From an uncultured SAR86 cluster bacterium (lineage in GTDB: Bacteria; Pseudomonadota; Gammaproteobacteria; Magnimaribacterales; AG-339-G14): a DNA stretch of 64,000 nucleotides. The position numbers and the translations under genes are program-made. A model generated the notes under the pieces. The model had not been told where the DNA came from. It searched no databases and saw only the letters and a list, made by a program, of their open reading frames with translations. This document shows, piece after piece, positions 978-33,204 of this stretch; position 1 is the first letter of the stretch; every line of letters begins with the position of its first letter. Where the stretch lies: contig CACFIK010000006.1 in NCBI GenBank assembly GCA_902566305.1, positions 1,731 through 65,730 of the forward strand, in the 5' to 3' direction.

Positions 978-1949
978 ATGGAAGTAAAAGAATTACTTAA
1001 AGATTTAAGAATCCCAGTCATAGGAGCACCATTGTTTACAGTTTCATATCCGGAGCTTGTAATTGCTCAATGCAAAGCAGGTATTGTTGGAAGTTTTCCT
1101 GCTTTAAATGCTAGACCTGCTGAAGAATTAGAAAAATGGTTTCAAAGGATATCTGCAGAACTAGAACAACATACAAGAGATAATCCTGATTCACCTGCAG
1201 CACCTTTTGCAGTAAATCAAATCTGTCACAAATCTAATGATAGGTTAGAACATGATGTTGAAGTATGTGTTGAATATAAAGTTCCAATGATTATCACAAG
1301 CTTGAGAGCACCAAAATTCGTTGTGGATGCCGTTCACAGTTATGGCGGAGTCGTTATGCATGATGTAATCAATATCAGACATGCTAAAAAGGCAATTGAT
1401 GAGGGTGCTGATGGATTAATTTTAGTTTGTGCTGGGGCTGGAGGGCATGCAGGCACATTAAGTCCTTTTGCATTAGTAAGCGAAGTAAGAGAATTTTTTG
1501 ATGGGCCAATTGCATTATCAGGATCAATATCTCAAGGATCATCAGTATTATCAGCTCAAGCGATGGGTGCTGATTTTGCTTATGTTGGCACAAGATTTAT
1601 TGCTACTGAGGAAGCAAATGCTTCAGAAGGCTACAAACAAATGATTGTTGAAAGTGCTGCTAACGATATTATGTATTCTTCAACCTTTACAGGAGTTCAT
1701 GGAAATTACTTAAAGCCAAGCGTTGTTAAAGCTGGATTAGATCCAGACAATCTTCCGGTTTCTGGAAAAGATGATATGAATTTCGGTTCATCTGGTTCTG
1801 CTATGAAAGATAACTCTTCCAAAGCCTGGAAAGACATATGGGGTTCTGGCCAAGGTATTGGAACGATCAAAAATGCTCCACCTGTTAAAGAGGTGGTTGA
1901 TCAGATGGTAGAAGAATATCAAACCATGAAAACAAAATTAGCTGTCTAG
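978..1949 (+). CDS. Nitronate monooxygenase / 2-nitropropane dioxygenase family flavoprotein
   Basis: PVIGAPLF, AGAGGHAG, AYVGTRFIAT, DIWGSGQG; AAGGAG RBS. Confidence 0.9.
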   Translation: MEVKELLKDLRIPVIGAPLFTVSYPELVIAQCKAGIVGSFPALNARPAEELEKWFQRISAELEQHTRDNPDSPAAPFAVNQICHKSNDRLEHDVEVCVEYKVPMIITSLRAPKFVVDAVHSYGGVVMHDVINIRHAKKAIDEGADGLILVCAGAGGHAGTLSPFALVSEVREFFDGPIALSGSISQGSSVLSAQAMGADFAYVGTRFIATEEANASEGYKQMIVESAANDIMYSSTFTGVHGNYLKPSVVKAGLDPDNLPVSGKDDMNFGSSGSAMKDNSSKAWKDIWGSGQGIGTIKNAPPVKEVVDQMVEEYQTMKTKLAV

Positions 1950-2666
1950 ATAATTTTGAGTTAATAAAAATTGATCATAATCCATATGCATTATTGCTAG
2001 TGCATCGTGGAAAGCTAGAACATTTATACTTCTTTTTATCATTTGAGAAGCTAAAGGAGATTTCGATTTAAATTTCTTGATCCACTTATTAATAACTTCA
2101 ATTTTTTTATCCCCATCAAACAATTCATCAAAAAAATTATATTTTTCTAATTCTTTCGTTGAGTAATTTGAACCAGATATGACCATTTCTTTTGTTTTTG
2201 ATGACCCTACTAGATTTTGTAATAAAGGAAGTCCAAGCCAATTTAGGTTCATTCCTAAAATAATTTCTGGATAGCCAATAATTGTATCTTTGTTACCTAT
2301 CCTAAAATCACAAGCTGTTGCTATGACTGCAGCACCGCCCAAGGTATACCCATTGGTAACACATATTGTTATTTGAGGAGTAGAGAGAATAGCTTCAATA
2401 CATTCTTTTCCATAATTCTTTTGCCATCTTTCTAAGTTATTTTGTTTCTTTTGTTTTTCTTTTATATCAGCTCCAGCTGAGAAATTTTTTTCATTAGAAT
2501 GAAGAACAATTATTTTAACTTTACTGTTCTTTGAAGCATCTAAAAAAACCCTTTTCAACTCATCTAAAGTTGCAGTATTTAAAGCATTCATAGATTTCTT
2601 TCGAGTTAGTTCAATATAGAAAACGCCACTTTTAAGTTCAGTTTTTAAATATTTGTACTTATTCAT
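1938..2666 (-). CDS. Enoyl-CoA hydratase/isomerase (crotonase) family
   Basis: MNALN, FSAGADI, GYTLGG, ACDFRI, YPEI.LG motifs. Confidence 0.88.
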   Translation of the reverse strand: MNKYKYLKTELKSGVFYIELTRKKSMNALNTATLDELKRVFLDASKNSKVKIIVLHSNEKNFSAGADIKEKQKKQNNLERWQKNYGKECIEAILSTPQITICVTNGYTLGGAAVIATACDFRIGNKDTIIGYPEIILGMNLNWLGLPLLQNLVGSSKTKEMVISGSNYSTKELEKYNFFDELFDGDKKIEVINKWIKKFKSKSPLASQMIKRSINVLAFHDALAIMHMDYDQFLLTQNYLDS

Positions 2667-2689
2667 TTATTAATTACTTTGAGAGAGAT

Positions 2690-3631
<942 letters not shown>

Positions 3632-3665
3632 CTATCTTTAAAAATGTTAAAATACTTAAAAACTA

Positions 3666-6029: not shown

Positions 6030-6603
6030 ACCATCTATCTTTTTATTTTTAATTTTAAATTCATTAAATTTAATATCCTGTGATGTTTCAAAAATAGAAA
6101 AATTTTTGGATGAAAATGTAAGATTCCAAGTATCTTATGAACAAAACTTTAGTGATTCCTCTGATTCCATAGAAGGCAATATTTACAGAGATTATGACAA
6201 TATAAAGGTTTTTTCTTTATCCCCAAGAGAAGAATTACTAATCAATGGCAAACAGATCTTTAGGCACGATCTTGAAATGGATCAATTAATAATTCAAGCA
6301 TCCAATGAATCTATCAATCAATCACCAGCCTTTTTATTATTTAACAAGCCAAATGCAATTTGTGATTTTTTTTCTGCAACCAATTGTACTGATCAATCTT
6401 GTAAATATTCTGACCCGTTAGATAATTTTTATTTAAAAAAAATTGAGATTGATTTTGTAAATCAAAAAATTAAAAAAATTGTTTACGAAGATATATTTGA
6501 AAGGATATCAACGATAATTTTATTTAAATACGAACAACTGGATAAAAAGGTATCATTTCAACCAGAAGTTTCAGATAAAACAGAAAGAATATTCCTAAAT
6601 TAA
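6016..6603 (+). CDS. lolA: Outer-membrane lipoprotein carrier LolA (divergent)
   Basis: Conserved position after ftsK; signal peptide; LLINGKQIFRHDLEMDQ..SPAFLL resembles the LolA core. Confidence 0.75.
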   Translation: MNLIKPSIFLFLILNSLNLISCDVSKIEKFLDENVRFQVSYEQNFSDSSDSIEGNIYRDYDNIKVFSLSPREELLINGKQIFRHDLEMDQLIIQASNESINQSPAFLLFNKPNAICDFFSATNCTDQSCKYSDPLDNFYLKKIEIDFVNQKIKKIVYEDIFERISTIILFKYEQLDKKVSFQPEVSDKTERIFLN

Positions 6604-6605
6604 AG

Positions 6606-7832
6606 ATGTTAGATAAAAAGCTATTAAATAAATCCCCGGAATTAGTTAAAAAAAATTTATCTTCCAGAGGTTACGTTCTCAATATTGATCAATGGAAAAA
6701 ACTTGAAGAAGAAAGAAAAATTGCTCAAGTTAATTTAGAAACAAATCAAGAGAATTTAAATAAATTATCAAAAGAAATTTCTAAGTCTAAGGATGATGCT
6801 AACTTAAAAGATCAGGCTTCATCCTTATCAACACTCGTAAAGCAAGATAAGGAAATACTTCAATCTATTCAAGATAATATTGACGAGTTTCTTCTGGATA
6901 TACCTAACATTTTAGATGAGTCTGTTCCAATTGGAGAGGATGAAACTTCAAATCAAATTATTGAAGAAACAGGCGATGTACCTAATTTCTCTTTTGAGCC
7001 AAAACCTCATTCTTTTTTTATAGAAAAAACTGATCAGGGTAGGGGAGTAAAAATTGCCAAAAGTCGTTTTACAGTTCTAAGCGGAGAACTTGCAAAATTA
7101 CATAGAGTTATCGGGCAGTTTATGATCGATACACATACTAACCTTCATGGTTATGAGGAATTGTATGTCCCTTATATTGTAAATAAGACCTCATTGATTG
7201 GCACAGGACAACTTCCTAAATTTGAAGAAGATTTATTTAAACTGACCGAAAGTTCTGATCTTTATTTAGCACCAACAGCAGAAGTGCCAGTTACTAATCT
7301 CCACAGAGATGAAAAACTAAATTCAGAGAAATTACCAATTAAATATGTGTGTCATTCGCCATGTTTTCGAAGTGAGGCAGGCAGTTATGGCAAAGATACC
7401 AAAGGTTTAATCAGACAACATCAATTTGATAAAGTTGAGCTCGTGAAGATTTGTCACCCAGACAATTCAGAAGATGAACACAAAAAATTAATTGATGATG
7501 CAAGTAAAATTCTAGAATTACTTGAGTTGCCGTTCAGGAAAGTGATCCTGTCCTCTGGAGATACGGGTTTTTCTGCTTCCAAAACTGTTGACCTTGAAGT
7601 TTGGTTTCCAAGTCAAAATACCTATAGAGAAATTTCTTCCTGCTCTAACTTTACTGATTTTCAATCAAGAAGAGCTAATTTGAAGTTTAAATCCGATAAA
7701 GGTAATGAATATTGTCATACACTAAATGGATCTGGCCTTGCTATAGGCAGGACTCTAGCTGCGATACTTGAAAATTATCAAACAGAAGGCGAAAATTTTA
7801 TATATCCAGAAGTTCTTAAAAAGTATATTTAA
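6606..7832 (+). CDS. serS: Serine--tRNA ligase
   Basis: GTGQLPKFEEDLF, PTAEVP, FRSEAG, REISSCSN, TLNGSGLA. Confidence 0.98.
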   Translation: MLDKKLLNKSPELVKKNLSSRGYVLNIDQWKKLEEERKIAQVNLETNQENLNKLSKEISKSKDDANLKDQASSLSTLVKQDKEILQSIQDNIDEFLLDIPNILDESVPIGEDETSNQIIEETGDVPNFSFEPKPHSFFIEKTDQGRGVKIAKSRFTVLSGELAKLHRVIGQFMIDTHTNLHGYEELYVPYIVNKTSLIGTGQLPKFEEDLFKLTESSDLYLAPTAEVPVTNLHRDEKLNSEKLPIKYVCHSPCFRSEAGSYGKDTKGLIRQHQFDKVELVKICHPDNSEDEHKKLIDDASKILELLELPFRKVILSSGDTGFSASKTVDLEVWFPSQNTYREISSCSNFTDFQSRRANLKFKSDKGNEYCHTLNGSGLAIGRTLAAILENYQTEGENFIYPEVLKKYI

Positions 7833-7929
7833 TATAAATAAAAAATTGAACCAATAAATTTTCTAAGTTGTAACATAGTTAAGTTAATTTTAAATTAAGA
7901 TTCTTCATTAAATAAAGGAGCGAATAAAC

Positions 7930-10900
7930 ATGATCCCCAATAATATTTTAAAATTAGTGGCAGTTGCTTTTTTAAGTAGTGTTCTCTTTTCTGTAGAAAC
8001 AACCTCAGATTTCAAAGGTAAGGTTACAGATAACTTTGGGAACGCACTTAGCGACGCTGAAATTACCATTACAAATACTTCAACGAATAGATCTAGTTCT
8101 ACTTCTGCGAATGAATCTGGTAACTTTGTTCTTTCAAATCTTCCGGTAGGAGGACCTTATACAGTTTTAGTCAGATCCTCGGCAGGATCTCAAAGATACA
8201 CGGACGTATACCTCAATTTAGGTCAAACTCTGTCTTTGAATGTAGTGCTAACTGATTTTGAACAATTAGTTGTTACCGGAGATCAAATTCTCGGTTCACA
8301 AGTAGCTTTAGGTCCAAGTAAAGTTTTTGATACTGCTGATCTTGATGCAGCTGTTGCTTACAACAGAGATATTAAAGAAGTGTTAGCTGAAGATCCAAGA
8401 CTCTACGTAGATGTTACTTCATCAGAAGCATACAGCGGTTTGCAATGTAATGGTCAGAACCCACGATACAATTCTTTCTCTTTAGATGGAATTGCAATGA
8501 ACGATGGTTTTGGTCTTAACAGTAACGGTTACCCAACAAACAGGTTACCTTTCTCATATGATTCGATTCAACAGGTATCTGCTGAATTCGCACCTTTTGA
8601 TGTTAAATATGGTGGTTTCTCTGCTTGTGTAGTTAACGCGGTTACCAAATCAGGTACGAATGAAGTTACAGGTAGTGCCTATTACGAATACACTGATGAT
8701 GGCCTGCTCGGTACAGAAATTGAAGGCAACAAGGGAATGATGGTTCCTTTTGAAGAGTCAAAAATAGGTTTCACTGTTGGTGGACCACTGGTAAGAGACA
8801 AAGCTTTCTTCTTCATTTCTGCTGAAAGATACGATGATGTCGATGTTGATCCATTTGGTCCTTTAGGATCCGGGGCTCCTTCAGAACTAGGTTTTTTAAG
8901 AGCATCCGATTACGACAGAATTATTGATATTGCTAAAAATAAGTATGGCTTTGACCCGGGCGGAATAGGCGGAGCACTAGATAGTTACGATAACAAGTTC
9001 CTCGCTAGATTTGATGTAGAGGCTGACGATAACAATTCTTTATCCATAACTTTCAATTACAACGATGGTTTCAATAACCAAGCTTCTGATTCATCCCCAA
9101 GCGAATTTGAATTTAATAAGCACTTCTATGAAAGAGGTCACGAAATGATGGCCTTAAACCTAGAACTTTTTTCTCAAATTACTGATAGCTTAGATAGTAA
9201 ATTAAGAGTTGGTTACAGAGATGTTGATAACAGACAGATCGGTATTGGAGGTCCTTTTGGAGATTTTCAAATTGATGTTGTAAATCCTGATAACAACGAA
9301 GAAGGTACTGTTTACCTTGGAGGAACTGATGACTCCAGACAGGCCAATAAAATGGATTACTCTACAACTGTTGTTCAATACTCATTAAACCAATTAGTTA
9401 ATAATCATTTGATTACTTACGGTGTTGAAGTTGAAAATACAGATATATTCAACTTGTTTATGCAACACTCTCTTAATGGTGAGTGGGATTTCTACGGCGG
9501 CATAGATGATTTTGATAACGGTCTTGCAAGAGTGTATTTTGGAAATACTCCTTCTTTAGACGAAAATAAAGCCGCAGCAGATTGGGGCTACGGACTAACT
9601 ACTCTTTTCATCCAAGATGAAATTCAAGCTTCTGATAGTGTTGAAGTAGTAGTTGGTCTAAGGTATGACACTTACTCAGTTAGTGGACAGCCTGCAGAAA
9701 ATGCCACTTTTAGAGCAGCTCATGGATATTCAAACACCATCACTCACGATGGCGCTGATGCATTAATGTTCAGATTAGGTTTTAACTGGGATATTGATGG
9801 CGATTCTCAGTTATACGGTGGTTACGGAGGTTTCTCTGGAGGTAATCCAAACGTTTGGTATTCAAATATGTTTTCAAACGACGGTGTTACTGCTATCCAA
9901 ACTAATGCGAGAAACTTAGAAATCTTTGATATACCAATGTGTAACAGTGATACTGGCGCTCCTTCGGATGCTGGCCCAGGTTTTGCTGTGCCATGTCAAT
10001 TAGTAGAAAAAGTTCAAAGCGGCAGTGCTGATAGTGATACCAACACGACTGATGCTAATTTTGAAGTACCAATTGTTCACAAAGTTGCTTTAGGATTTAA
10101 TTCTAGCTTTGGAGTAGAAGACTTACTTTTCAATGCAGACATTATCTACACTGAAGTTGAAAATCCTGCCATTATCAGAGATGTAAATAACGTTCCTACA
10201 GGAGAAACTGATTTTACAGGCAGACCTCTTTATAGCTGTGCTGGAGGAAATAAAAGAGATTCATTCACATGTTTCGGTCCTTTTGATTTTCAATTAACTA
10301 ATTCACAGCTTAAACCTGAGGGATTAACTTATTCAGCTTCTCTGAGCAAACTTTGGAGAGAGCACGATGTAAGAATAGCTATTGGTTATGCCAATACTTC
10401 CATGGAAGATGTCAGTCCAATGACTTCAAGTGTTGCGTATTCAAACTACACAGGAGTTGCGGTAACAGATAGAAACAATCCTGCTTTAGGTAATTCTAAT
10501 CACACCATTCCTGAGAGAGTTACTGCATCGTTGAGATATTCACCGGTAACTATTGAGGGTGGTTATAGATTGAAAGTTTCTTTATTCTTAAATCACTTCC
10601 AAAGCAGATCTTATTCATATGTTTACGATGGAGAAGTGCACGGACAAACTCCAGCTTTCACGGATCAAAGTTTGTTATATGTTCCGGTTAATGCAGCTGA
10701 TCCAAATGTAGTGTTCGATGGAATAGATCCTGCAGCTTTCTTTGCATTAACTGATGCCGCTGGATGTCCAAGAGGACAATACTGTCCTAGAAACTCAATT
10801 GATGGTTCTTGGAACACCATGGTTAATATGAAAGTTGCTCAAGAATTCCCTGGTTTTGTAGCTGGTCATGAAGCTGAGCTCTACATGGTTATCAGAAACT

Positions 10901-22081: not shown

Positions 22082-23017
22082 ATGAAAGCTGTTTCATATG
22101 CACAGGGAAAGGTAAACTTTAACGCTAACGCACCAACTCCAAAAGGTGACGGTGTTTTAGTTGATATCGTTGCGGCTGGAATTTGTGGTAGTGATCTACA
22201 TTTATTACATTCAGGAGCACATTCCCCTCACGTTGCAGGACACGAAATAGCTGGGATAACTCCTAATGGTAAGCATGTTGCAATTGAACCTATCATTCCT
22301 TGTTGGGATTGTGATTTATGCCATAAAGGTGACTATCATATTTGCAAAAATAATTCTGAGGGTCTAGGCATATCATCAAATGGGGGGATGGCTGAACAAA
22401 TACTTGTTCCTGAACATTGCTTGTTTGAGCTGGATAAGAAAGTTCCTTTGCAAGATGGATGTCTTGTTGAACCATTGGCAGTATCCCTTCATGGCTTAAT
22501 AAAAACCAATACAAACGAAAGACATAAAGTAGCAGTTATTGGAGGCGGCACAATTGGTTTATGTACTGTTCTTGCCGCTAAACATTTAGGCTGTCATGTT
22601 GATCTGTATGCAAAGTATGATCATCAAAAGGAAGCAGGACTTAAATTAGGAGCAGGAGAATTATCAGGACAATATGATCGGGTAGTTGATTGTGTCGCAA
22701 ATGATCAAACCCTAGAATTATCTGCAAAAACTGCCAAACCTGGATCCTGGGTCATTCTTTTGGGAATTCCTTTGAACGGGATAAATTTACCTGGAATGAG
22801 AATGATCATGAACGAAATTCAAGTATTTCCTTCTATTATGTACAGTTCTACGAATGGGGTAAGAGATTTTTCTGTTGCAGCAAAATTAATATCTCAAAAC
22901 ACAGATATAGGAAAAACTATCATTTCTCACAGATTTAATCTGGAAGATGCCAAAGAAGCCTTTCGTATAGCTGATGATAAAAATTCTGGCAGTATTAAAG
23001 TAGTTTTTAATAATTAG
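22082..23017 (+). CDS. Zinc-dependent alcohol dehydrogenase (MDR)
   Basis: GICGSDLH, GHE, C..C..C.......C structural Zn site, EPLAV, GGGTIG. Confidence 0.92.
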   Translation: MKAVSYAQGKVNFNANAPTPKGDGVLVDIVAAGICGSDLHLLHSGAHSPHVAGHEIAGITPNGKHVAIEPIIPCWDCDLCHKGDYHICKNNSEGLGISSNGGMAEQILVPEHCLFELDKKVPLQDGCLVEPLAVSLHGLIKTNTNERHKVAVIGGGTIGLCTVLAAKHLGCHVDLYAKYDHQKEAGLKLGAGELSGQYDRVVDCVANDQTLELSAKTAKPGSWVILLGIPLNGINLPGMRMIMNEIQVFPSIMYSSTNGVRDFSVAAKLISQNTDIGKTIISHRFNLEDAKEAFRIADDKNSGSIKVVFNN

Positions 23018-23022
23018 AAAAG

Positions 23023-23679
23023 ATGAATCTATTAGCAGGCTCAACAGGATTTTTAGGAAACGAAATACTAAATGAATTAAGTTCAACAAATAGTAAGACC
23101 ATAGCTATAAGCAGAAGAAATATAAATTACTTACCAGTTGACGCTGAACAGTTGATTGTTGATTTCAATAAACTATCAGAATTAGATTTACCCAAAATAG
23201 ACAATCTATTTCTTTCCTTAGGGTATCCACTTTATTTTCACAACGTAATGGGCGTTATGAATGAAAACCTAAAGAATAATTTATGCTTAGTAGACTTTAC
23301 TTATCAACTTGAAATAGCAAAAAAAGCAAAAGATGCTGGTGCTAAAAATATATCGATTATTTCAGCAGTTGGCGCCAATCCTCATTCTTGGAATTATTAT
23401 TTAAAAACCAAGGGTCGCGTAGAGAATGAAATTATCAATATTGGATTTGATTCTACAAATATATTCCAACCTGGACATTTAAGAGGGAATAAATATCGAT
23501 TTGATATTCTTTTAGCCGATTTGGCTTCAATTTTTTTTGATCCTTTTTTACATGGATCTTTAAAAAAATTTAGAAGCATCTCAGCCAAAGCAGTTGCAAA
23601 GCAAGTGGTTAACAATTCTTTAAATAGTAAATCTGGAATCAATTATTTCGATTTCAAAGATTTTGATTCCTGGAGATGA
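23023..23679 (+). CDS. NAD(P)-binding Rossmann protein (YraR/TIP30-like)
   Basis: AGSTGFLG, VDF.Y, ISAVGAN, Y.KTKG.VE, IFQP. Confidence 0.8.
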   Translation: MNLLAGSTGFLGNEILNELSSTNSKTIAISRRNINYLPVDAEQLIVDFNKLSELDLPKIDNLFLSLGYPLYFHNVMGVMNENLKNNLCLVDFTYQLEIAKKAKDAGAKNISIISAVGANPHSWNYYLKTKGRVENEIINIGFDSTNIFQPGHLRGNKYRFDILLADLASIFFDPFLHGSLKKFRSISAKAVAKQVVNNSLNSKSGINYFDFKDFDSWR

Positions 23680-23680
23680 T

Positions 23681-24046
23681 ATGCAAAAAAATATATTTAA
23701 CGAAGATATAGAAGAATGTTGTACAAATCCAATAACAGGTTTTTACAGAGATGGATTTTGTAATACTGATCAATTAGATTTTGGAACGCATACAGTTTGC
23801 ACGTTGATAACTAATGATTTTTTAGAATTTTCAAAAAGTATGGGAAATGATCTATCCACGCCTAGACCAGAATTTGATTTTCCAGGATTAAAAGAAGGCG
23901 ATAAGTGGTGTGTCTGTGCAAATAGATGGCTTGAAGCATACGAAAATGGAAAGGCACCTATGGTCTACTTAAGAAAAAGCCATCAAAAATCTACATCAAT
24001 AATTGATATTGAGATTTTAAAAAAATATGCATTAGATTTAGAGTAG
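23681..24046 (+). CDS. DUF2237 family protein
   Basis: P.TGFYRDG.C, GNDLSTPRPE..FPGL..GD.WC.CA.RW; GGAG before ATG 23681. Confidence 0.88.
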   Translation: MQKNIFNEDIEECCTNPITGFYRDGFCNTDQLDFGTHTVCTLITNDFLEFSKSMGNDLSTPRPEFDFPGLKEGDKWCVCANRWLEAYENGKAPMVYLRKSHQKSTSIIDIEILKKYALDLE

Positions 24047-24052
24047 AAGTTT

Positions 24053-25285
24053 ATGCGAGTCTTACAAGATATTTTTCAAAAAAACAGCATTAATTATGGT
24101 TGGGTTATGGTCGTTGTTGTTTTTACTCTGAGTGGGCTTGCTTTTGGATCTATGGCTTCAATATCCGTGTTTTTAAAGCCAGTGTCTCTTGAATTTGACT
24201 GGTCTAGAGGACAAACCTCTTTTGCTTACACAGTGGCATCTTTTTCATCAGCTGCATTCGGTGTTTTTTGGGGTTACGTGGCAGATAAATATGGAACTAA
24301 ATGGTTTGGTCTAGCAGGCGCTGTAAGCATGGGCTTTATTCTATTCTCATTAAGTTCACTCGATTCAATTTATAAGTTTTACCTTTTATATTTTTTATTT
24401 GGAGCTTTTGGATCAGCTCTGTTGTTTTCACCTTTGTATGCAAATGTCGGATTCTGGTTCAGAGAGAATCCTGGTCTTGCATTAGGTATTGCTGCATCTG
24501 GCGGCGCTGTTGGGCAGGCATTTATTCCTCACATAAGTGGTATATTGATAGAAGCATCAGGGTGGAGAGATGCGTATATTTATTTAGCTTTAATATACTT
24601 GGCAATATCTTTACCTATTGCTTTATTAATTCAGGAATCACCATGGAGGGAAGGAGCGAGACAAGATGCAGAAATAGAAGAAAGGGATTTTCCCTTATCT
24701 GAAAAAGCAGTCGTAGTATGGATAAGTTTTGCAGTTATTTTTTGTTGTGTGTGCATGTCAGTACCGATAATGCATCTAGTTCCACTATTAACCGATAAAG
24801 GTTTCTCATTAGAATTTTCCACATTTGTGTTAATGCTCTTAATGATTTGTGGAGCTTTTGGAAGAATTTTTGGGGGTATGCTTGGAGATTATATTGGAGC
24901 ATTGCCCGGCTATATATTAATGTCATTGGGGCAAACTATTTTTGTGGTTTGGTTCCCACATTTAGTTTCACCTTTCGGCATCTATTTAATTGCCGCTTTG
25001 TTTGGATTTACCTATTCTGGCGTCATGTCTAGTATTTTAGTCTGCACAAGAATGATGGTATCAGCAAAGTTTGGAGCCAGAGCCATGAGCATCACTTCAT
25101 TTTTTGGTTGGATAGGAATGGGCCTGGGAGGTTTTCTGGGAGGCTATCTCTTTGATATTTACGGAGATTACACTTTAGCATTCACTATCGCAGGCATATC
25201 TGGAATTATAAATCTGATTTTTCTTACAATTTTCTTTTTGCAAATCAGAAGAAACAGTAATCCAGCTATAGAATTTCAATCTTAG
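24053..25285 (+). CDS. MFS transporter (MCT/OFA-like)
   Basis: About 12 hydrophobic segments; G..ADKYG, WF....GLA.GI, GG.LFD..G.Y. Confidence 0.9.
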   Translation: MRVLQDIFQKNSINYGWVMVVVVFTLSGLAFGSMASISVFLKPVSLEFDWSRGQTSFAYTVASFSSAAFGVFWGYVADKYGTKWFGLAGAVSMGFILFSLSSLDSIYKFYLLYFLFGAFGSALLFSPLYANVGFWFRENPGLALGIAASGGAVGQAFIPHISGILIEASGWRDAYIYLALIYLAISLPIALLIQESPWREGARQDAEIEERDFPLSEKAVVVWISFAVIFCCVCMSVPIMHLVPLLTDKGFSLEFSTFVLMLLMICGAFGRIFGGMLGDYIGALPGYILMSLGQTIFVVWFPHLVSPFGIYLIAALFGFTYSGVMSSILVCTRMMVSAKFGARAMSITSFFGWIGMGLGGFLGGYLFDIYGDYTLAFTIAGISGIINLIFLTIFFLQIRRNSNPAIEFQS

Positions 25286-25310
25286 TTGGAAAAATTATAA
25301 TTGCTTCCTT

Positions 25311-25400
25311 TAAAATCTTTCATCGATCTGAAACTCATATAGAATAAGCAAACCAAAAAGGAGGGGTGGCAGAGTCTGGTTGAATGCACTGGTCTTGAAA
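25311..25400 (+). repeat. Direct repeat copy 1 (attL-like): tRNA promoter + tRNA-Ser 5' half
   Basis: 90 bp identical to 27069-27158 except two substitutions in the upstream part; ends exactly at the end of the anticodon loop CTTGAAA. Confidence 0.95.
25360..25400 (+). pseudogene. Truncated tRNA-Ser(TGA), 5' half only
   Basis: GGAGGGGTGGCAGAGTCTGGTTGAATGCACTGGTCTTGAAA followed by unrelated sequence. Confidence 0.93.
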
Positions 25401-25516
25401 TTTTTACTCCACCTTTTACTTAAATCACTCCATTTCACAAAAACCCTTATAAAACCTACGGTTTATTTAATATTTACAAACAAGCTGTAACATTTAGAAA
25501 TACCCAGAAATAATTT

Positions 25517-25531
25517 ATTGGGGTACAAATT
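25517..25531 (+). repeat. 15-bp repeat, putative integrase arm-type site (left)
   Basis: ATTGGGGTACAAATT, identical to 27037-27051. Confidence 0.6.
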
Positions 25532-25708
25532 GTTAACTTTAATTCAATGCTGAAAAGGGGAGTCTAAAAGAACACTAAGCTCGCGAATCACCCACTAGAT
25601 AAGTTGCTAGACAGTACCTTTGTATAGGGGGTTAAATATAAAAATGGAATTATGGATGATTGGCATAGGGATATTGGTGATCTTCGTAGCATCATTTTTT
25701 GGAGAAAA

Positions 25709-26914
25709 ATGTTAAAAAAAATATTAGCTCTACTGACAATCATTGCTTTGATTGTGATCTTTATGTACAAAGATTTGTATACTCGAGTGACAGTTCTCGG
25801 GACTCTTTTTTCAGGAGAAGAGCAGTATGAAAATTTAAATAGGTTCTATAAATTCATTGATTCATCAACTTTATCGCCCTCTTCTAATCCTTTAAATTTT
25901 AAATCCAGTAAAACTATATCTTTACCATCAAGCTTTAATTTCAATGATGCAGTAATTGGAACTGAGAATTTTCTCCAGCGAACAGACACTAGCGCTTTAT
26001 TGATTCTACAAAATGGAAGAATTCAATTTGAAAAGTACTGGTTAACTGGAGGAGAAAATGTTCAGTGGATGTCTATGTCTGTTGCCAAAAGCTTTATTTC
26101 TGCTCTAGTTGGCATTGCAATAAGAGATGGTCATATCAACAATATAGAAGAGGCAATTTCAGATTATGTGCCTGAATTAAAAAATTCACCATATAACAAC
26201 GTGCGTATAAAAGATGTGCTACAAATGTCTTCCGGCGCATCATGGAACGAGGATTACAGTGATCCTGAATCAGATATAAATCGATGGGCTAAAATTTTTG
26301 CTTTGGGCGGTTCGTTCGATGAATTTATTCAAACCTTAAGTGATGACTTCAAACCTGGAACAAGAAATCGTTACAATTCCATGGATACTCAAGCTCTTGG
26401 CATGTTAGTTAATCGGGCTACGGGAAAAACAATTACTAACTACATGACAGAAATGCTCTGGCATCCGATGGGTGCTTCTAATGAGGGTTATTGGCTACTT
26501 GATTCTGAAGGCATGGAAATGGCATTTGCTGGACTAAATATCACAGCAAGAGATTATGCAAAATTTGGAGAGCTTTACCGTTTAGATGGCAAATTAAATG
26601 GACAACAAATTGTTCCTAAATCTTGGGTAAAAGATTCGATCACCCCAGATGGACCTCATCTAACTCCAGGGGATAATCCTCTTTCTGATTACCCCTTGGG
26701 ATATGGCTATCAGTGGTGGGTGCCTGGAGGTGACAAAGGTGAATTCATGGCAATTGGGATTTACAACCAAATGATTTATGTTGCACCAGAATCCAACATG
26801 GTAATTGTCAAATTATCTGCTAACAGCTCATATGGGACTGCTGAAGACACAGGTATTGCGAGCGAACTTGAGACAATTGAATTTTTTAGAGCTATTGCAA
26901 ACAAGAGCCTTTAA
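25709..26914 (+). CDS. Serine hydrolase, beta-lactamase/NylB (6-aminohexanoate-dimer hydrolase)-like, N-terminal anchor
   Basis: SVAK (SxxK), YNS, YGYQWW, AIGIYNQ; GGAG RBS before ATG 25709. Confidence 0.9.
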   Translation: MLKKILALLTIIALIVIFMYKDLYTRVTVLGTLFSGEEQYENLNRFYKFIDSSTLSPSSNPLNFKSSKTISLPSSFNFNDAVIGTENFLQRTDTSALLILQNGRIQFEKYWLTGGENVQWMSMSVAKSFISALVGIAIRDGHINNIEEAISDYVPELKNSPYNNVRIKDVLQMSSGASWNEDYSDPESDINRWAKIFALGGSFDEFIQTLSDDFKPGTRNRYNSMDTQALGMLVNRATGKTITNYMTEMLWHPMGASNEGYWLLDSEGMEMAFAGLNITARDYAKFGELYRLDGKLNGQQIVPKSWVKDSITPDGPHLTPGDNPLSDYPLGYGYQWWVPGGDKGEFMAIGIYNQMIYVAPESNMVIVKLSANSSYGTAEDTGIASELETIEFFRAIANKSL

Positions 26915-26918
26915 TTAA

Positions 26919-27032
26919 TTTACTCTTTATTTTATAAATAAAGATTTAAAAACAGTCCAAAGCATCCAAAACCATATGGATGGTTCAAACAGCGAATATT
27001 TTAATAAAATAAGAAAGCGATCACTAAACTGA
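26919..27032 (+). pseudogene. Possible C-terminal remnant of a tyrosine recombinase/integrase
   Basis: Start-less frame FTLYFINKDLKTVQSIQNHMDGSNSEY.. resembles Xer/Int box II (DLR.VQELLGH.DISTT.IY); ends at the arm-like repeats. Confidence 0.45.
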
Positions 27033-27051
27033 ACAAATTGGGGTACAAATT
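27031..27051 (+). repeat. Tandem G(A/T)ACAAATT repeats (12-bp period), putative arm-type sites (right)
   Basis: GAACAAATTGGG GTACAAATT; includes the 15-mer shared with 25517-25531. Confidence 0.6.
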
Positions 27052-27068
27052 CCTATTTATTCCCCAAG

Positions 27069-27158
27069 TAAAATCTTTCATCGTTCTGAAACTCATATAG
27101 AATAGGCAAACCAAAAAGGAGGGGTGGCAGAGTCTGGTTGAATGCACTGGTCTTGAAA
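27069..27158 (+). repeat. Direct repeat copy 2 (attR-like), overlapping the intact tRNA
   Basis: Matches 25311-25400; contains -10 TAGAAT at 27098-27103. Confidence 0.95.
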
Positions 27159-27209
27159 ACCAGCAGGTCAGAAATGGCCTCGTGGGTTCGAATCCCACCC
27201 CCTCCGCCA
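27118..27209 (+). tRNA. tRNA-Ser (anticodon TGA)
   Basis: Acceptor stem GGAGGGG/CCCCTCC + GCCA, anticodon arm CTGGT-CTTGAAA-ACCAG, long variable arm, GTTCGAATCC T-loop. Confidence 0.98.
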
Positions 27210-27216
27210 TAAAAAA

Positions 27217-27747
27217 ATGAATATTTGCGTCTTTCTAGGTTCATCAATTGGTAAGGATCCTCTCTATGCCGAAACAGCCTTTGAATTAGGTAAACAAATT
27301 GCTATGGCTAATCATAAGCTTGTTTATGGAGGAGGAGGGCTAGGATTAATGAATGAGCTTGCAAACGGCTGCCTTTCTGCAGGAGGTGACATATATGGTG
27401 TTATTACTGAGAGATTACTTGATATGGAGGCTGGCCATGAGGGTATCCAAGAATTAAAAATTGTTCAAACGATGCATGAAAGAAAAAAACTTATGTCAGA
27501 CGCTGCTGATTGTTTTATTTTGTTACCAGGAGGAGTTGGATCATATGAAGAGATCTTCGAAATCATGGCATGGAATCAACTTCAAATTATAGATAAGCCA
27601 ATTTTTATTCTAAACACGAACGGCTTTTATGATTCTTTAAAAATATTTCTTAAGAATGCAAAAGATGAAGGTTTTTTTAATGAAAAAACATTCAATATGT
27701 TCAATTTATATGACTCAATTGAAGAAATCTTATCTAAAATTGATTAA
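27217..27747 (+). CDS. LOG family nucleotide phosphoribohydrolase (TIGR00730)
   Basis: ICVF.GSS, LVYGGG..GLM, MHERK, LPGG.G..EE. Confidence 0.93.
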   Translation: MNICVFLGSSIGKDPLYAETAFELGKQIAMANHKLVYGGGGLGLMNELANGCLSAGGDIYGVITERLLDMEAGHEGIQELKIVQTMHERKKLMSDAADCFILLPGGVGSYEEIFEIMAWNQLQIIDKPIFILNTNGFYDSLKIFLKNAKDEGFFNEKTFNMFNLYDSIEEILSKID

Positions 27748-30843: not shown

Positions 30844-31729
30844 TAAAAATGTATTAAAAGGAAAAAGAATCTTAGTAACCGGAGGAGGATCGGGTCTAGG
30901 TAAAGAAATGACTAGGCACTTCGTCAAGCACGGAGCGGAAGTTTACATTTGTGGTAGAAGGGAAAACGTTCTTAAGGATACTGCTGAAGAAATTATGTCT
31001 GAGCATGGTGGAAAAGTTAATTATTTCCCTCTTGATATTAGAGACGCAATGTCAATTGAAGAAAACATTGAAAATGTTTTTAATGAAGGACCGCTTGATG
31101 GATTAGTAAATAACGCCGCTGGAAATTTTATTTCAAGAACTAAAGATTTATCTCCAAATGGTTTTAATGCAATTGCATCAATTGTCTTTCACGGTACCTT
31201 CTATATTACTAATGCTGTTGGTAAAAGATGGTTAGAACTTGGTCATAAAGGAAGCATTGTCTCGATTCTAGCAACATGGGTTTGGACTGGATCACCATTT
31301 GTTGTTCCATCTGCGATGTCAAAGTCAGGTATTAATGCCATGACAAAGTCATTAGCAGTTGAGTGGGGACCTCACGGTATAAGATTAAACTCTATTGCTC
31401 CAGGTCCATTTCCAACAGAAGGAGCTTGGGCAAGGTTGATGCCTCAAACAGGGGACAAAAAATCTGATATTTCTGAGGATGCAGAGAGAAGTAATGTTCC
31501 GTTAGGAAGAGTAGGAAAAATGGATGAGCTTGGTAATTTAGCAACTTTCTTAATGGCAGATGGCTGTGAATACCTTACAGGTCAAACTATTGCTATTGAT
31601 GGAGCACAATATATTACTGGTGGGGGTACTTTTTCGATGATGAGCTCTTTCAAGGATGAAGATTGGGAAGCCATCAAAAGCACAATAAAAGGCTCCAACG
31701 AGAAAGACAAAAAACAAAGAACTGTTTAG
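30836..31729 (+). CDS. SDR, 2,4-dienoyl-CoA reductase-like
   Basis: TGGGSGLG, NNAAGNF, SAMSK, SLAVEWG, IAPGPF; GGAG RBS before ATG 30836. Confidence 0.9.
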   Translation: MFDKNVLKGKRILVTGGGSGLGKEMTRHFVKHGAEVYICGRRENVLKDTAEEIMSEHGGKVNYFPLDIRDAMSIEENIENVFNEGPLDGLVNNAAGNFISRTKDLSPNGFNAIASIVFHGTFYITNAVGKRWLELGHKGSIVSILATWVWTGSPFVVPSAMSKSGINAMTKSLAVEWGPHGIRLNSIAPGPFPTEGAWARLMPQTGDKKSDISEDAERSNVPLGRVGKMDELGNLATFLMADGCEYLTGQTIAIDGAQYITGGGTFSMMSSFKDEDWEAIKSTIKGSNEKDKKQRTV

Positions 31730-31752
31730 AATTGTAATGTACAGGAGGAAAT

Positions 31753-33204
31753 ATGACTGATTCTGTTTTTGATGAAATGAAGGAAGTTTTAGCTTTGCAA
31801 AAAAAGGCTCATATCGATGAAGGACCTGCAAGTTATGAATTACGTTTAGATAGATTAAATAGACTCTCTCAGATGTTAAAAAAATATTCTGATGAGATAG
31901 TAGATACAATTAGTGAAGATTACGGAACTAGAGATAAAAACAGTACTTTTTTATCAGAAGTTATGTCTAGCTTAGGAAGTGTTGATTATTCAATCAAAAA
32001 TCTTAAGAAGTGGATGAAGTCTGAAACCAGACAATCAAATTCAAGTCAGCCCTTTGTAGCAAGATTAATGATGCGTTTATTGGGTGCTAAGACGGAAATT
32101 CAATATCAACCACTTGGAACCATTGGAATGATTAAACCATGGAATTTTCCAATAAATTTAATTATTTCCCCGATAGCACAAGCATTTGCTGCCGGAAATA
32201 GAGTAATGATTAAACCCTCTGAAATAACTCCGAAAACATCAGATCTAACTAAAAAGATGTTTAATGAATTTTACGACAAAGCAGAAGTTGAAGTTTTTCT
32301 AGGCGGTCCTGATGTGGCTGAGGCTTTTGGAAATTTAGACTTTGATCACTTACTTTTTACTGGATCAACTAACAACGGTAGAAAAGTTATGCAATCCGCC
32401 GCGGGAAACCTTGTTCCAGTTACACTGGAGCTAGGAGGCAAATCTCCAGTAATTATGGATGATACTGCTGATGTTTCTTTATCCGCTACAAGATTGATGC
32501 GTGGTAAAACCATGAATGCAGGTCAGATCTGCATTGCTCCTGATTACATGATGATGCCTAAAGGTAAAGTTGACGAATTTATAGATGAGAGCACTAAAGC
32601 TGTTTCTGAAATGTATCCAGATATGAAATACAACGAACACTACACTTCAATTGTTAATCAAAGACATTTTGAGAGGATTAATAGTCTTATCGAAGATGCA
32701 AAAGAAAAGGGCGCTGAAATTAAAACAATTAATCCTGCAAATGAAGATTTTGAGCAACAAGAAGGACATAAGATTCCTCCAACTTTTGTCTTAAATCCTA
32801 CTGATGATATGAAAATCATGCAGGAAGAGATCTTTGGGCCTGTTATGCCTATTAAAGAATATGAGGATATTGATGAAACCATAAGCTACGTTAATTCAAA
32901 ACCTAGGCCTTTAGCTCTATATTATTTTGGTAAAAATAAAGATACCCAAGATAAAATTCTTAATAGAACCACATCTGGAGGAGCAACTATTAATGATGTT
33001 GTGTGGCACTACGGTCAGGAAGATATGCCTTTTGGTGGAGTTGGAGACAGTGGTATTGGTTCTTATCATGGTCATGAAGGTTTTAAGAGATTCAGTCATC
33101 AAAAATCAGTTCTAACTCAGTTTAGTTCTGACTTATTGAAAAACATGATGCCTCCTTACAAAGGTAAAATGTTTGAATCAGCTAAAAAGAACGCTCTTAA
33201 ATAA
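31753..33204 (+). CDS. Coniferyl-aldehyde dehydrogenase-like ALDH
   Basis: PWNFP, FDHLLFTGST, NLVPVTLELGGKSP, NAGQICIAPDY, EEIFGP, PFGGVG.SG.G.YHG. Confidence 0.88.
   Translation: MTDSVFDEMKEVLALQKKAHIDEGPASYELRLDRLNRLSQMLKKYSDEIVDTISEDYGTRDKNSTFLSEVMSSLGSVDYSIKNLKKWMKSETRQSNSSQPFVARLMMRLLGAKTEIQYQPLGTIGMIKPWNFPINLIISPIAQAFAAGNRVMIKPSEITPKTSDLTKKMFNEFYDKAEVEVFLGGPDVAEAFGNLDFDHLLFTGSTNNGRKVMQSAAGNLVPVTLELGGKSPVIMDDTADVSLSATRLMRGKTMNAGQICIAPDYMMMPKGKVDEFIDESTKAVSEMYPDMKYNEHYTSIVNQRHFERINSLIEDAKEKGAEIKTINPANEDFEQQEGHKIPPTFVLNPTDDMKIMQEEIFGPVMPIKEYEDIDETISYVNSKPRPLALYYFGKNKDTQDKILNRTTSGGATINDVVWHYGQEDMPFGGVGDSGIGSYHGHEGFKRFSHQKSVLTQFSSDLLKNMMPPYKGKMFESAKKNALK

What the first reader, a model, noticed from the sequence alone, without database searches (positions are those of the whole stretch)
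25311..27209. One-gene cassette integrated 'backwards' at tRNA-Ser: it duplicates the tRNA promoter and 5' half, not the 3' end
Seen: 25311-25400 and 27069-27158 are a 90-bp direct repeat with 2 mismatches, both upstream of the tRNA. It consists of 49 bp of upstream DNA (with -10 TAGAAT) plus the first 41 nt of tRNA-Ser, and stops exactly at the end of the 7-nt anticodon loop. Between the copies are 1.67 kb with a single intact gene. Established: tyrosine integrases often cross over in the anticodon loop, but elements usually sit downstream of the tRNA and restore its 3' end. Inference: this element carries a replacement promoter and 5' half, so cargo accumulates upstream of the tRNA. With no intact integrase it may be a non-autonomous mini-element exchanged in trans, an integron-like single-gene slot in a streamlined genome.
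Basis: partly seen in the sequence, partly recalled or inferred. Interest (0 to 1): 0.85.

Follow-up and report, generated by a model that had tools for sequence, protein, structure and literature searches.

The report
Integrase-less phage-cos cassette at tRNA-Ser
A 1.8-kb one-gene insert in front of a serine tRNA gene of a small marine bacterium is a real, swappable cassette that rebuilds the tRNA's promoter and front half, encodes no mobility protein, and carries a phage packaging (cos) site, so it may move between cells inside phage particles.

Summary
A 90-nt direct repeat with 2 mismatches (49 nt upstream plus tRNA-Ser(TGA) nt 1-41, ending at the last anticodon-loop base) flanks 1668 nt holding one intact gene, a PF00144 serine hydrolase.

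It is a true insertion polymorphism. Among the 15 other species of the genus, 8 have the empty site and 1 has the same cassette. One metagenome contig has the same ends around a different single gene. Two genomes of a second genus carry homologous ends at the same tRNA nucleotide with other cargo.

The tRNA-proximal repeat copy carries the incoming alleles, so the element supplies the promoter and 5' half. This reversed orientation is rare but known. Matching arm-like repeats lie on both sides, as in an integrase-bearing tRNA-Phe element of the same genus. I found no integrase for the tRNA-Ser type.

New here: the cassette backbone holds about 75-105 nt homologous to the cos site of about 32-kb phages with a lambda-gpA-type terminase. 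Phage contigs from both genome arms end in this block and overlap by 12 nt.

Best reading: a cis-only (att plus cos) hitchhiker cassette. The recombination, the packaging and the helper are inferred, not shown.

The parts
25311..25400 (+). Left repeat copy (attL-like): host-derived 49 nt of tRNA upstream DNA (TAGAAT at 25340-25345) plus a dead tRNA-Ser fragment, nt 1-41 (25360-25400).
   Evidence: The 49 upstream nt are identical to the empty-site alleles of G003 and G007.
25401..25561 (+). Left end of the element (P'-arm-like). It is conserved in all five tRNA-Ser cassettes. It holds the arm-like repeat ATTGGGGTACAAATTG at 25517-25532, which is tandem in environmental variants.
   Evidence: Alignment A1; the repeat finder family D2; 12-nt insertion ATTGGGGTACAA behind 25516 in contigs of runs X1, X2 and X6.
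25562..25634 (+). Phage cos-like block. The 12-mer TCGCGAATCACC at 25581-25592 corresponds to the phage cohesive end. It is followed by TTGCTAGACAGTACCTTT from 25604.
   Evidence: blastn to phage contigs L096 (90.7% over 54 nt) and L097 (83% over 65 nt); alignments; phage contig ends; positions.
25652..26914 (+). The single cargo gene, a beta-lactamase-family (PF00144) serine hydrolase with an N-terminal hydrophobic segment. The likelier start is 25710. It has the same orientation as the tRNA.
   Evidence: No PADLOC defence family hit.
26915..27068 (+). Right end of the element (P-arm-like), with the second copy of the arm-like repeat, ATTGGGGTACAAATTC, at 27037-27052.
   Evidence: Homologous 'solo' right ends stand upstream of tRNA-Ser in G014, G002, G013 and G062.
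27069..27158 (+). Right repeat copy: element-derived promoter region plus tRNA nt 1-41, now the working front half of the gene. The inferred crossover lies in the anticodon loop, 27152-27158.
   Evidence: Carries both variant bases (27084 T, 27105 G). The same alleles occur in L088's right copy and in G014.
27118..27209 (+). Intact tRNA-Ser(TGA). It is the only tRNA with this anticodon found in the assembly.
   Evidence: ARAGORN on the window and on the whole genome; Rfam RF00005, 59.6 bits.

Best explanation
The stretch 25401-27158 (1758 nt) is a non-autonomous integrative cassette. Its backbone of about 0.4 kb holds only cis-acting sites. The first is an attP-type site made of arm-like repeats on both sides of a core equal to the tRNA-Ser(TGA) promoter region plus nt 1-41. 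The second is a copy of the cos site of a family of about 32-kb phages with a lambda-gpA-type terminase. The cassette carries one cargo gene for an envelope or secreted protein. It entered by site-specific recombination in the anticodon loop, in the rare reversed orientation. The incoming DNA therefore supplies a new promoter and 5' half for the tRNA, and the old promoter plus a dead 5' half is left upstream, pointing into the cargo. The recombinase, presumably a tyrosine integrase that reads the arm repeats, must be supplied in trans. The cos site would let the helper phage's terminase package the cassette, plausibly as concatemers, so that single genes are exchanged at this slot between cells. 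SHOWN: the repeat; the insertion polymorphism; alternative cargo between the same ends; which repeat copy is incoming; the matched arm-like repeats; the absence of any mobility gene; the homology to a phage site that behaves as a 12-nt cohesive-end cos. INFERRED: the integrase type and its action in trans; the crossover point; packaging by the phage; expression of the cargo from the duplicated tRNA promoter.
For: (1) Polymorphism. Among the 15 other genus genomes, 8 have the empty site, 1 (G009) has the cassette at 96% identity, 4 have other upstream content and 2 lack the locus in incomplete assemblies.

(2) Same site, other cargo. L088 has an identical left junction and one 677-aa lipoprotein gene. 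G073 and G023, in genus g3, have a junction at the same tRNA nucleotide, with small signal-peptide or membrane ORFs and a lipoprotein respectively. The five left ends align over about 300 nt at 70% column identity.

(3) Direction. The left copy matches the empty-site allele and the right copy carries both variant bases.

(4) Arm-like repeats match within each element and differ between elements. G000 has GGGGTACAAATT on both sides. G009 has tandem GGGTCACAAATT on both sides. G073 has tandem GGTGACYTTT on both sides. An 8.5-kb element at tRNA-Phe in G004, with a 461-aa PF00589 integrase, has the same layout with its own repeats.

(5) cos. The conserved block occurs in 7 IMG/VR contigs. Five of them start 4-5 nt before GAATCACCC and one spans the block about 200 nt upstream of terS, followed by terL (GpA_ATPase plus GpA_nuclease) and portal. 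Of 30 contigs with a terS relative, 13 start at the reverse complement of ..CGAATCACC, 3 start 12-21 nt further in and 4 span the block. One record rated 100% complete (32,326 nt) begins and ends with the same 12 nt, CCTCGAAACACC.

(6) Conservation. All 8 bacterial copies keep the 12-mer and the flanking core unchanged while their surroundings diverge. Copies in genus g1 resemble the phage L096/L135/L136 variant, and copies in g3 resemble the L097 type. No RNA structure is predicted, which fits a DNA site.

(7) Plausibility. Small marine satellites packaged as 8-17-copy concatemers in full-size capsids, about 20% of them without an integrase gene, are described in PMC9618062 (passages read).
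Against: No cognate integrase was found. There is none in the cassette. G000 has a single PF00589 hit, a 307-aa frame on another contig. None lies beside tRNA-Ser in the 50 family genomes, nor among relatives of the G004 integrase in 266 order genomes; those sit beside 3' fragments of tRNA-Phe or tRNA-Pro. None of 5 phage records has one, including two that are 100% and 91% complete.

There is no evidence of an excised circle or of packaged cassettes. The left-junction pattern has 0 hits in IMG/VR, and every motif-bearing viral contig is phage, not cassette.

The cassette has no replication function, so it is unexplained how concatemers long enough for a 32-kb head would arise. L088 lacks an obvious right-side arm repeat.

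Both SNPs lie in the left 37 nt of the repeat, so a RecA crossover anywhere to their right fits as well as an anticodon-loop crossover. Precise loss by recombination between the 90-nt repeats could also produce empty sites. The islands next to tRNA-Ala and tRNA-Arg that carry the same cos block have arm repeats only on the tRNA side, as one-ended relics would.
Confidence: 0.6

Rival explanations
1. The cassette is a decayed, now immobile remnant of a larger integrase-bearing element, such as a phage satellite or a tycheposon-like island. That element once integrated at tRNA-Ser in reversed orientation. Deletions removed the integrase and other genes, and the att and cos sites are relics.
For: Decay is visible. 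In G023 the left tRNA fragment is shortened to about 20 nt. G009 lacks about 97 nt of the right end. G035 carries a half copy of the cos block. G014, G002, G013 and G062 have solo right ends. The tRNA-Ala and tRNA-Arg islands keep arm repeats on one side only. The tycheposon preprint describes degenerate remnants and partial tRNAs in islands (passages), and the IME review describes CIME formation by decay (passage).
Against: Four different cassettes (G000/G009, L088, G073, G023) would each have had to lose everything except one to three cargo genes while keeping both ends. No full-length parent turned up in 266 order genomes or in IMG/VR. The cos core is invariant in 8 of 8 copies across two genera, and the arm repeats match left and right within each element. 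That pattern suggests selection on the sites rather than decay.
Confidence: 0.25
2. No dedicated recombinase is involved. Gain, loss and cargo swapping happen by homologous (RecA) recombination: Campbell-type insertion of a circle through the 90-nt homology, and allelic replacement through the conserved flanks, as in replacement flexible genomic islands.
For: The 90-nt homology is long enough for RecA. The SNP pattern fits any crossover to the right of repeat position 37. The region upstream of tRNA-Ser varies in gene content across the genus: the MFS gene is present or absent, and G005 has polysaccharide-export-like genes there. G003's flanks are 99-100% identical to G000's although it is a different species representative, which suggests recent recombination.
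Against: It does not explain why the homology ends exactly at the last anticodon-loop base in two genera whose promoter regions differ (85% identity over 74 nt in G073). It also does not explain why matched tandem repeats sit about 100-120 nt on each side of that point, as in the integrase-bearing tRNA-Phe element.
Confidence: 0.1
3. The repeat is an assembly artefact or chimera of a single-cell or metagenome assembly.
For: The genome is a 33-contig draft, 72% complete. No Logan contig bridges either junction with at least 31 nt on both sides.
Against: The same architecture appears in independent assemblies: G009, L088, G073 and G023. The cassette interior is a single contig at 99-100% identity in runs X1 and X2, and 20 rows from 11 studies hold the stretch or part of it.
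Confidence: 0.01

Closest known systems
tRNA-targeting integrative elements that recombine with the 5' part of the gene ('reversed target orientation'; Zhao and Williams 2002, J Bacteriol 184:859, and archaeal cases)
   Same: The direct repeat is the 5' part of a tRNA gene, and the element must bring a replacement promoter and 5' half. PMC6563490 (passage read) says 5'-distal recombination is 'considerably less frequent' than 3'-distal and lists such cases, one of them at a tRNA-Ser.
   Different: Those elements encode their own integrase, whereas this cassette encodes none and is only 1.76 kb. The 2002 paper itself is not held. I know it only from its title in reference lists and from recall.
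CIMEs (cis-mobilizable elements)
   Same: They are defined as elements that have lost their integration and transfer genes but keep attL and attR (PMC5704250, passage read). That is the state seen here.
   Different: CIMEs are described as decayed ICEs or IMEs moved by conjugation after accretion with an incoming element. Here the transfer signal is a phage cos site, and no parent element is known.
Phage satellites that carry their helper's cos site (P4, cos-type PICIs; marine VEIMEs of PMC9618062)
   Same: The cassette is a chromosomal, att-flanked element with a packaging site homologous to that of a phage. Marine satellites are small, are packaged as concatemers in full-size heads, and about 20% have no integrase gene (passages).
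   Different: Known satellites carry replication and regulatory genes and often integrase and interference genes, with monomers from under 5 kb to 16.8 kb. This cassette has none of these and is 1.8-2.5 kb. No cassette copy was found in IMG/VR.
Tycheposons of Prochlorococcus (bioRxiv 10.1101/2020.12.28.424599)
   Same: They are cargo-carrying elements and their remnants next to a small set of tRNAs, including Ser-tga and Ala-ggc, in a streamlined marine bacterium. Partial tRNAs mark successive integrations, and the islands grow from the tRNA (passages).
   Different: Tycheposons are defined by their own tyrosine (or serine) recombinase, often with a replication module. No such gene is present here. 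The passages I read say nothing of a 5'-half orientation or of cos sites. I could not see the supplements or the journal version.
Integron gene cassettes
   Same: Both have one promoterless-looking gene per cassette, inserted at a fixed site downstream of a resident promoter. Here that promoter is the duplicated tRNA promoter, and the cargo is co-oriented with it in all four cassette types.
   Different: There is no attC-type imperfect inverted repeat (one search shows no such pair in the cassette), no attI and no IntI. The recombination site is a tRNA half with arm-like repeats.
iOriT elements (integrative elements carrying only an oriT; PMC11389934)
   Same: They follow the same logic: a hitcher that carries only the cis signal recognised by a helper's transfer machinery. 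The essay proposes pairing hitchers and helpers through shared oriT, cos or pac motifs (passages).
   Different: Their route is conjugation, not phage packaging. I found no description of an integrative element with cos as its only transfer function in the searches listed under Tried and rejected.

Membership tests
tRNA-integrating tyrosine-integrase element (genomic island or prophage type) | Direct repeats made of a tRNA segment, with one end at the anticodon loop or another canonical sublocation | tested here: met
   The 90-nt repeat ends at tRNA nt 41, the last loop base. The same nucleotide is used in G073 and G023.
tRNA-integrating tyrosine-integrase element (genomic island or prophage type) | Integrase gene inside the element | tested here: not met
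   The only long ORF is the PF00144 gene. G000 has one PF00589 hit, elsewhere in the genome.
tRNA-integrating tyrosine-integrase element (genomic island or prophage type) | Arm-type repeats on both sides of the core | tested here: inconclusive
   Matched repeats lie about 100-120 nt on each side and resemble the layout of the G004 tRNA-Phe element. Binding by an integrase was not tested, and L088 lacks the right-side repeat.
tRNA-integrating tyrosine-integrase element (genomic island or prophage type) | Empty target site in relatives | tested here: met
   8 of 15 other genus genomes.
Phage satellite (P4 / PICI / VEIME kind) | Packaging site homologous to that of a helper phage | tested here: met
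   The cos block at 25562-25634 matches phage contigs whose ends define a 12-nt cohesive end.
Phage satellite (P4 / PICI / VEIME kind) | Own replication, regulation or interference genes | tested here: not met
   There is one cargo gene only. PADLOC gives no hit.
Phage satellite (P4 / PICI / VEIME kind) | Found packaged in virus particles | tested here: not met
   0 IMG/VR contigs carry the cassette junction. IMG/VR is an assembly collection, so this is weak evidence. Long-read virion data were not available.
CIME | attL and attR kept, integration and transfer genes absent | tested here: met
CIME | Derived from an ICE or IME and mobilised by conjugation | not tested
   No conjugation gene or oriT was looked for beyond the ORF list. 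No parent element is known.
Integron cassette | attC recombination site and IntI integrase with attI | tested here: not met
   There is no inverted-repeat pair within the cassette and no integrase nearby. No attC covariance model was run.
Tycheposon | Element-encoded tRNA-specific recombinase (hallmark gene) | tested here: not met
Phage cos site of a gpA-type terminase (for the conserved block, in the phages) | Genome ends at a fixed site upstream of terS, with a short terminal overlap | tested here: met
   5 of 7 right-arm contigs and 13 of 30 left-arm contigs end in the block and overlap by 12-13 nt. One complete 32,326-nt record has the same 12 nt at both ends. terL is PF05876 plus PF20454.
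Beta-lactamase / serine hydrolase family PF00144 (cargo) | Pfam score above the gathering cut-off | tested here: met
   112.5 bits against a cut-off of 27, residues 113-391. Substrate and any resistance activity were not tested.

The most novel reading that the evidence does not exclude
These are protein-less 'natural integrating cosmids': a backbone of about 0.4 kb made only of an att site and a phage cos site. It shuttles single envelope-protein genes among streamlined marine bacteria inside the heads of an integrase-less, probably virulent 32-kb cos phage. It then inserts at tRNA-Ser through an integrase supplied in trans, and the displaced tRNA promoter drives the cargo. This would be a phage-borne functional analogue of an integron slot, and the phage counterpart of iOriT elements.
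Probability: 0.3. Interest if true: 0.88.

Novelty: new variant of a known kind. Interest (0 to 1): 0.72.

Why it matters
Streamlined ocean bacteria show large gene-content variation, yet few of the classical vehicles of gene transfer are found in them. A cassette holding only cis sites, an att site and a helper phage's cos, would be about the smallest conceivable hitchhiker. It would link a defined phage to defined chromosomal slots (tRNA-Ser, tRNA-Ala, tRNA-Arg) through a shared 12-nt cohesive-end site. The PLoS Biology essay PMC11389934 describes exactly this kind of helper-hitcher pairing as hard to obtain.

It also gives clean natural examples of the rare reversed tRNA orientation, in which the element has to carry a working promoter. 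The claim is testable with existing long-read virome methods.

Tried and rejected
**Structured RNA.** Rfam at E<=1 finds only the tRNA and sub-threshold noise in 24900-27400. RNAalifold on 9 copies of the conserved block predicts 0 pairs. I dropped this idea.

**Promoter reading of the block.** Only weak hexamers with wrong spacing can be found by eye, and the scan flags nothing there. The phage copies lack any -10-like hexamer. I did not pursue it.

**Prophage remnant.** In 8 of 8 copies the homology to phage is limited to about 105 nt, with no phage gene on either side. I rejected this as the origin of the whole cassette.

**Helper-phage integrase.** 0 of 5 phage records have PF00589. Phage ORFs scanned with PHROGs and Pfam show none.

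**Other integrases.**
- G061:C31 lies next to guaA, with a resolvase.
- G027:C12 and G011:C2 show no tRNA-Ser fragment.
- IMG/VR relatives of the G004 integrase: 1 distant hit.
- IMG/VR hits to the arm pattern (5 contigs) come from unrelated GC-rich or other hosts and were set aside as chance or convergent.

**Collection scans.**
- Genome contigs: 0 hits for both patterns. The tool says close relatives may be left out, so this says little.
- INPHARED phages: no DNA match to the cos region. The best terL relatives are Roseobacter CRP phages at 49% identity.

**Reads.** Logan contigs break at the repeats. No contig bridges a junction and no skip or back joint spans the cassette, so nothing can be said about empty-site or circular forms in those samples. 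I do not use depth as a share of cells.

**Closed or unavailable sources.** Supplements of the tycheposon and VEIME papers, which list elements by host and tRNA, were not available and could hold related cases.

**Literature searches for a prior description.** I ran (0 papers). From I read only the listings. I found no description of a cos-only integrative cassette or of these elements, but most subscription journals are not searched.

**Taxon.** No tool named it.
Full report
**1.
The repeat finder gives 25311-25400 and 27069-27158 as a 90-nt direct repeat with 98% identity. The two differences are at repeat positions 16 and 37. ARAGORN finds a single tRNA in the window, tRNA-Ser(TGA) at 27118-27209, and Rfam agrees. 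The repeat is 49 nt of upstream DNA plus tRNA nt 1-41. Nt 35-41 are the anticodon loop, so the repeat stops at the last loop base, after which the two copies are unrelated.

The 1668 nt between the copies hold one long ORF (25652-26914), a PF00144 serine hydrolase with a hydrophobic N-terminus. The window lies in a 1.06-Mb, 33-contig draft that is 72% complete, at about 33% GC.

**2. It is a real insertion polymorphism.**
A 3.2-kb query across the locus was searched against 60 relatives and the loci were then inspected. The 15 other species representatives of the genus split as follows:
- 8 (G001, G003, G004, G006, G007, G010, G012, G015) have the MFS gene joined through one copy of the 90 nt to an intact tRNA-Ser. 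G003 is 99-100% identical in both flanks.
- 1 (G009) has the same cassette at 96% identity, with both repeat copies.
- 3 (G002, G013, G014) lack the MFS gene and have other DNA up to the tRNA.
- 1 (G005) has about 4 kb of polysaccharide-export-like and lipoprotein genes there.
- 2 (G008, G011; 71% and 88% complete) show no tRNA-Ser.

In Logan contigs of seawater metagenomes the cassette interior is a single contig at 99-100% identity in runs X1 and X2. Twenty rows from 11 studies hold the stretch or part of it.

**3. The element brings the promoter and the 5' half.**
The 49 upstream nt of the left copy are identical to the empty-site alleles of G003 and G007. The right copy, which is the working one, has T at position 16 and G at position 37. 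The same two alleles appear in the right copy of the independent contig L088 and upstream of the tRNA in G014. The exchange therefore took place to the right of position 37. The shared end point of the homology makes the anticodon loop the likely crossover, but this is inferred.

About 70 nt further upstream of the right copy (26995-27068), the cassette resembles the DNA upstream of tRNA-Ser in G014, G002 and G013. In G062 (genus g4) a tandem arm-like repeat stands there with no left fragment within 16 kb. I read these as solo right ends left behind after older insertions lost their left parts.

**4. The slot takes other cargo, and the element family spans two genera.**
One scan of metagenome contigs with the left-junction pattern returned a single hit, L088 (2512 nt). 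It has an identical left junction, the same left end, a right repeat copy joined to the tRNA 3' half, and one different gene, a 677-aa lipoprotein.

In the family-wide search (50 genomes), partial copies of tRNA nt 1-41/42 occur in 3 genomes: G000, G009 and G073 (genus g3). In G073 a 1.88-kb insert with three small ORFs lies between the fragment and the intact tRNA. G023 (g3) has the same left end behind a further shortened fragment, followed by another lipoprotein gene, and its contig ends inside the cassette. The five left ends align along about 300 nt with 70% mean column identity.

In every case the first cargo ORF starts 15-33 nt after the conserved block, on the tRNA's strand. All but one (truncated by a contig end) begin with a signal-peptide-like or lipobox-like sequence. 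Pfam and PADLOC recognise none of them except PF00144.

**5. Arm-like repeats, but no integrase.**
Each cassette has a short repeat about 100-120 nt on either side of the junction point. The repeat matches between the two sides of one element and differs between elements:
- G000: GGGGTACAAATT on both sides. The left one is tandem in contigs of runs X1, X2 and X6.
- G009: tandem GGGTCACAAATT on both sides.
- G073: tandem GGTGACYTTT on both sides.
- L088: a tandem on the left only.

The same layout surrounds a classical 8.5-kb element in G004. That element is integrated at tRNA-Phe with a 3'-half repeat and a 461-aa PF00589 integrase, and its own repeat (TGTGAACC..) stands on both sides.

For the tRNA-Ser type I found no integrase:
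- PF00589 in the 50 family genomes gives mostly about 300-aa frames. I take these to be Xer-like from their size and number.
- It also gives four other places, none near tRNA-Ser.
- G000 has one hit, on another contig.
- Relatives of the G004 integrase occur in 5 of 266 order genomes. Where a tRNA fragment is nearby, it is a 3' fragment of tRNA-Phe or tRNA-Pro.

**6. The backbone carries a phage cos site.**
A conserved block (GAATCACCCA, 9 nt, TTGNTANACAGTACC) occurs 7 times in 5 of 266 order genomes, all in family f1, genera g1 and g3. Four copies are in tRNA-Ser cassettes. Three lie just downstream of intact tRNA-Ala(GGC) (G000 contig C8, G035) or tRNA-Arg(CCT) (G073), each behind its own tandem repeats.

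The same block occurs in 7 IMG/VR contigs. These are phage contigs:
- L097 has terS (phrog_57), terL (PF05876 plus PF20454, the lambda gpA type), portal and head-tail joining genes.
- Others carry primase-helicase, lysozyme, a tail fibre, Mom and Dam.

Five of the seven contigs start 4-5 nt before GAATCACCC. One starts 76 nt before it, and L097 spans it about 200 nt upstream of terS.

I then fetched 30 IMG/VR loci encoding terS relatives. Of these, 13 contigs begin at (T)GGTGATTCG.., the reverse complement of ..CGAATCACC. Three begin 12-21 nt further in, 4 span the block and 10 have other arrangements or arbitrary ends. The two sets of contig ends overlap by 12-13 nt.

One record rated 100% complete by CheckV (32,326 nt, 'linear') begins with CCTCGAAACACC and ends with the same 12 nt. 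This is what filled-in 12-nt cohesive ends look like, so the block is the phages' cos.

The homology between phage and cassettes covers about 105 nt in g3 and at least 54-65 nt in G000 (25562-25634), with no phage gene on either side. All 8 bacterial copies keep the 12-mer and the core. g1 copies share the ..TCGCGAATCACC.. variant with phage contigs L096, L135 and L136, and g3 copies share ..CTTCGAATCACC.. with the L097 type. No RNA structure is predicted.

**7. How it most likely works.**
The cassette has the two cis signals a hitchhiker needs and no gene for either process. I infer three steps:
- A cognate integrase encoded elsewhere recombines the cassette's attP with the anticodon loop of tRNA-Ser in reversed orientation.
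- The 32-kb phages' terminase recognises the cassette's cos. About 13-18 copies would fill a head, a copy number of the order reported for marine satellites (8-17; PMC9618062).
- The displaced tRNA promoter reads into the cargo.

None of these three steps is shown. The two near-complete phage records have no PF00589 integrase, so the helper for packaging and the source of the integrase would be different elements.

**8. Rivals.**
- A decayed, immobile remnant (0.25) fits the visible decay. It fits less well with four independently minimal cassettes, matched arms and an invariant cos core.
- RecA-only insertion and replacement (0.1) fits the SNP pattern and the variable neighbourhood, but not the shared end point and the arm layout.
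- An assembly artefact is excluded (section 2).

**9. Relation to what is known.**
- Recombination with the 5' part of a tRNA gene is documented as rare (PMC6563490 passage). The founding paper, Zhao and Williams 2002, is known to me only by title and recall.
- att-flanked elements without mobility genes are called CIMEs (PMC5704250 passage).
- Tycheposons use an overlapping set of tRNAs in Prochlorococcus and leave remnants (preprint passages).
- Marine satellites can lack integrases and travel as concatemers.
- cis-only hitchers are recognised for conjugation as iOriT elements, and shared cos or pac motifs are proposed as a way to pair hitchers with helpers (PMC11389934 passages).

What seems undescribed is the combination: an att-plus-cos backbone of about 0.4 kb, single cargo genes and reversed tRNA orientation. 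The searches are listed under Tried and rejected, and the supplements were closed. I therefore rate it a new variant of a known kind.

**10. Limits.**
- The genomes are drafts, and mobile elements often fail to assemble.
- Logan contigs cannot show junction heterogeneity.
- The taxon was not named by any tool.

Noticed in passing
G000 contig C8, about 31400-32170 (minus strand); outside the window: A second copy of the cos block sits about 275 nt downstream of intact tRNA-Ala(GGC), behind tandem repeats TTGAGTCCCACTTTGAGTTCCAC. It is followed by a run of small lipoprotein or signal-peptide ORFs. No distal arm repeat or partial tRNA was found within about 8 kb. G035 has the same layout, plus a half copy of the block in front of a second gene.
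   Followed up: partly
L073 (G004:C14) 2027-10648: A classical 8.5-kb integrative element at tRNA-Phe(GAA). It has a 51+ nt 3'-half repeat, a 461-aa integrase, an HNH-HIT fusion protein and several unknown ORFs. Relatives of its integrase in other families of the order also sit beside tRNA-Phe 3' fragments.
   Followed up: partly
G266 (IMG/VR record behind L126, L141, L142), 32,326 nt: An apparently complete cos phage genome with identical 12-nt ends and no PF00589 integrase. Related contigs encode Mom-family and Dam proteins, and an endonuclease VII/HNH gene lies close to the genome end. Its host is unknown. The shared cos variants suggest it infects the bacterial family of the window.
   Followed up: partly
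L038 about 1925-2000 and L084 about 10815-10900: A conserved hairpin-containing stretch (GAAGGACAGAYCGG..GRTCTGTCCTTCAGTAAAGCGACTGAAG..) follows the first cargo gene both in the G073 tRNA-Ser cassette and in the G035 tRNA-Ala island. It may be a shared terminator or another cis module.
   Followed up: no
window 26628-26698: Contigs of three metagenome runs (X1, X2, X6) skip 69 nt inside the cargo gene, which would be an in-frame 23-codon variant. Only 25 nt lie on the shorter side of the joint, so confidence is low.
   Followed up: no
window 22082-25285 compared with L033-L036: The genes upstream of the slot (alcohol-dehydrogenase-like, NAD-binding-like, DUF2237, MFS) are themselves present or absent across the genus. 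G014, G002 and G013 lack the MFS gene. G002 and G013 have a small Trm112-like ORF instead. G005 has Wza/Wzc-like export genes. The whole region upstream of tRNA-Ser behaves as a flexible island.
   Followed up: partly
L074 (G061:C31) 1314-3154: A 411-aa tyrosine integrase and a 202-aa serine resolvase/invertase-like gene lie directly downstream of the guaA 3' end. This is another integration hotspot in the family.
   Followed up: no
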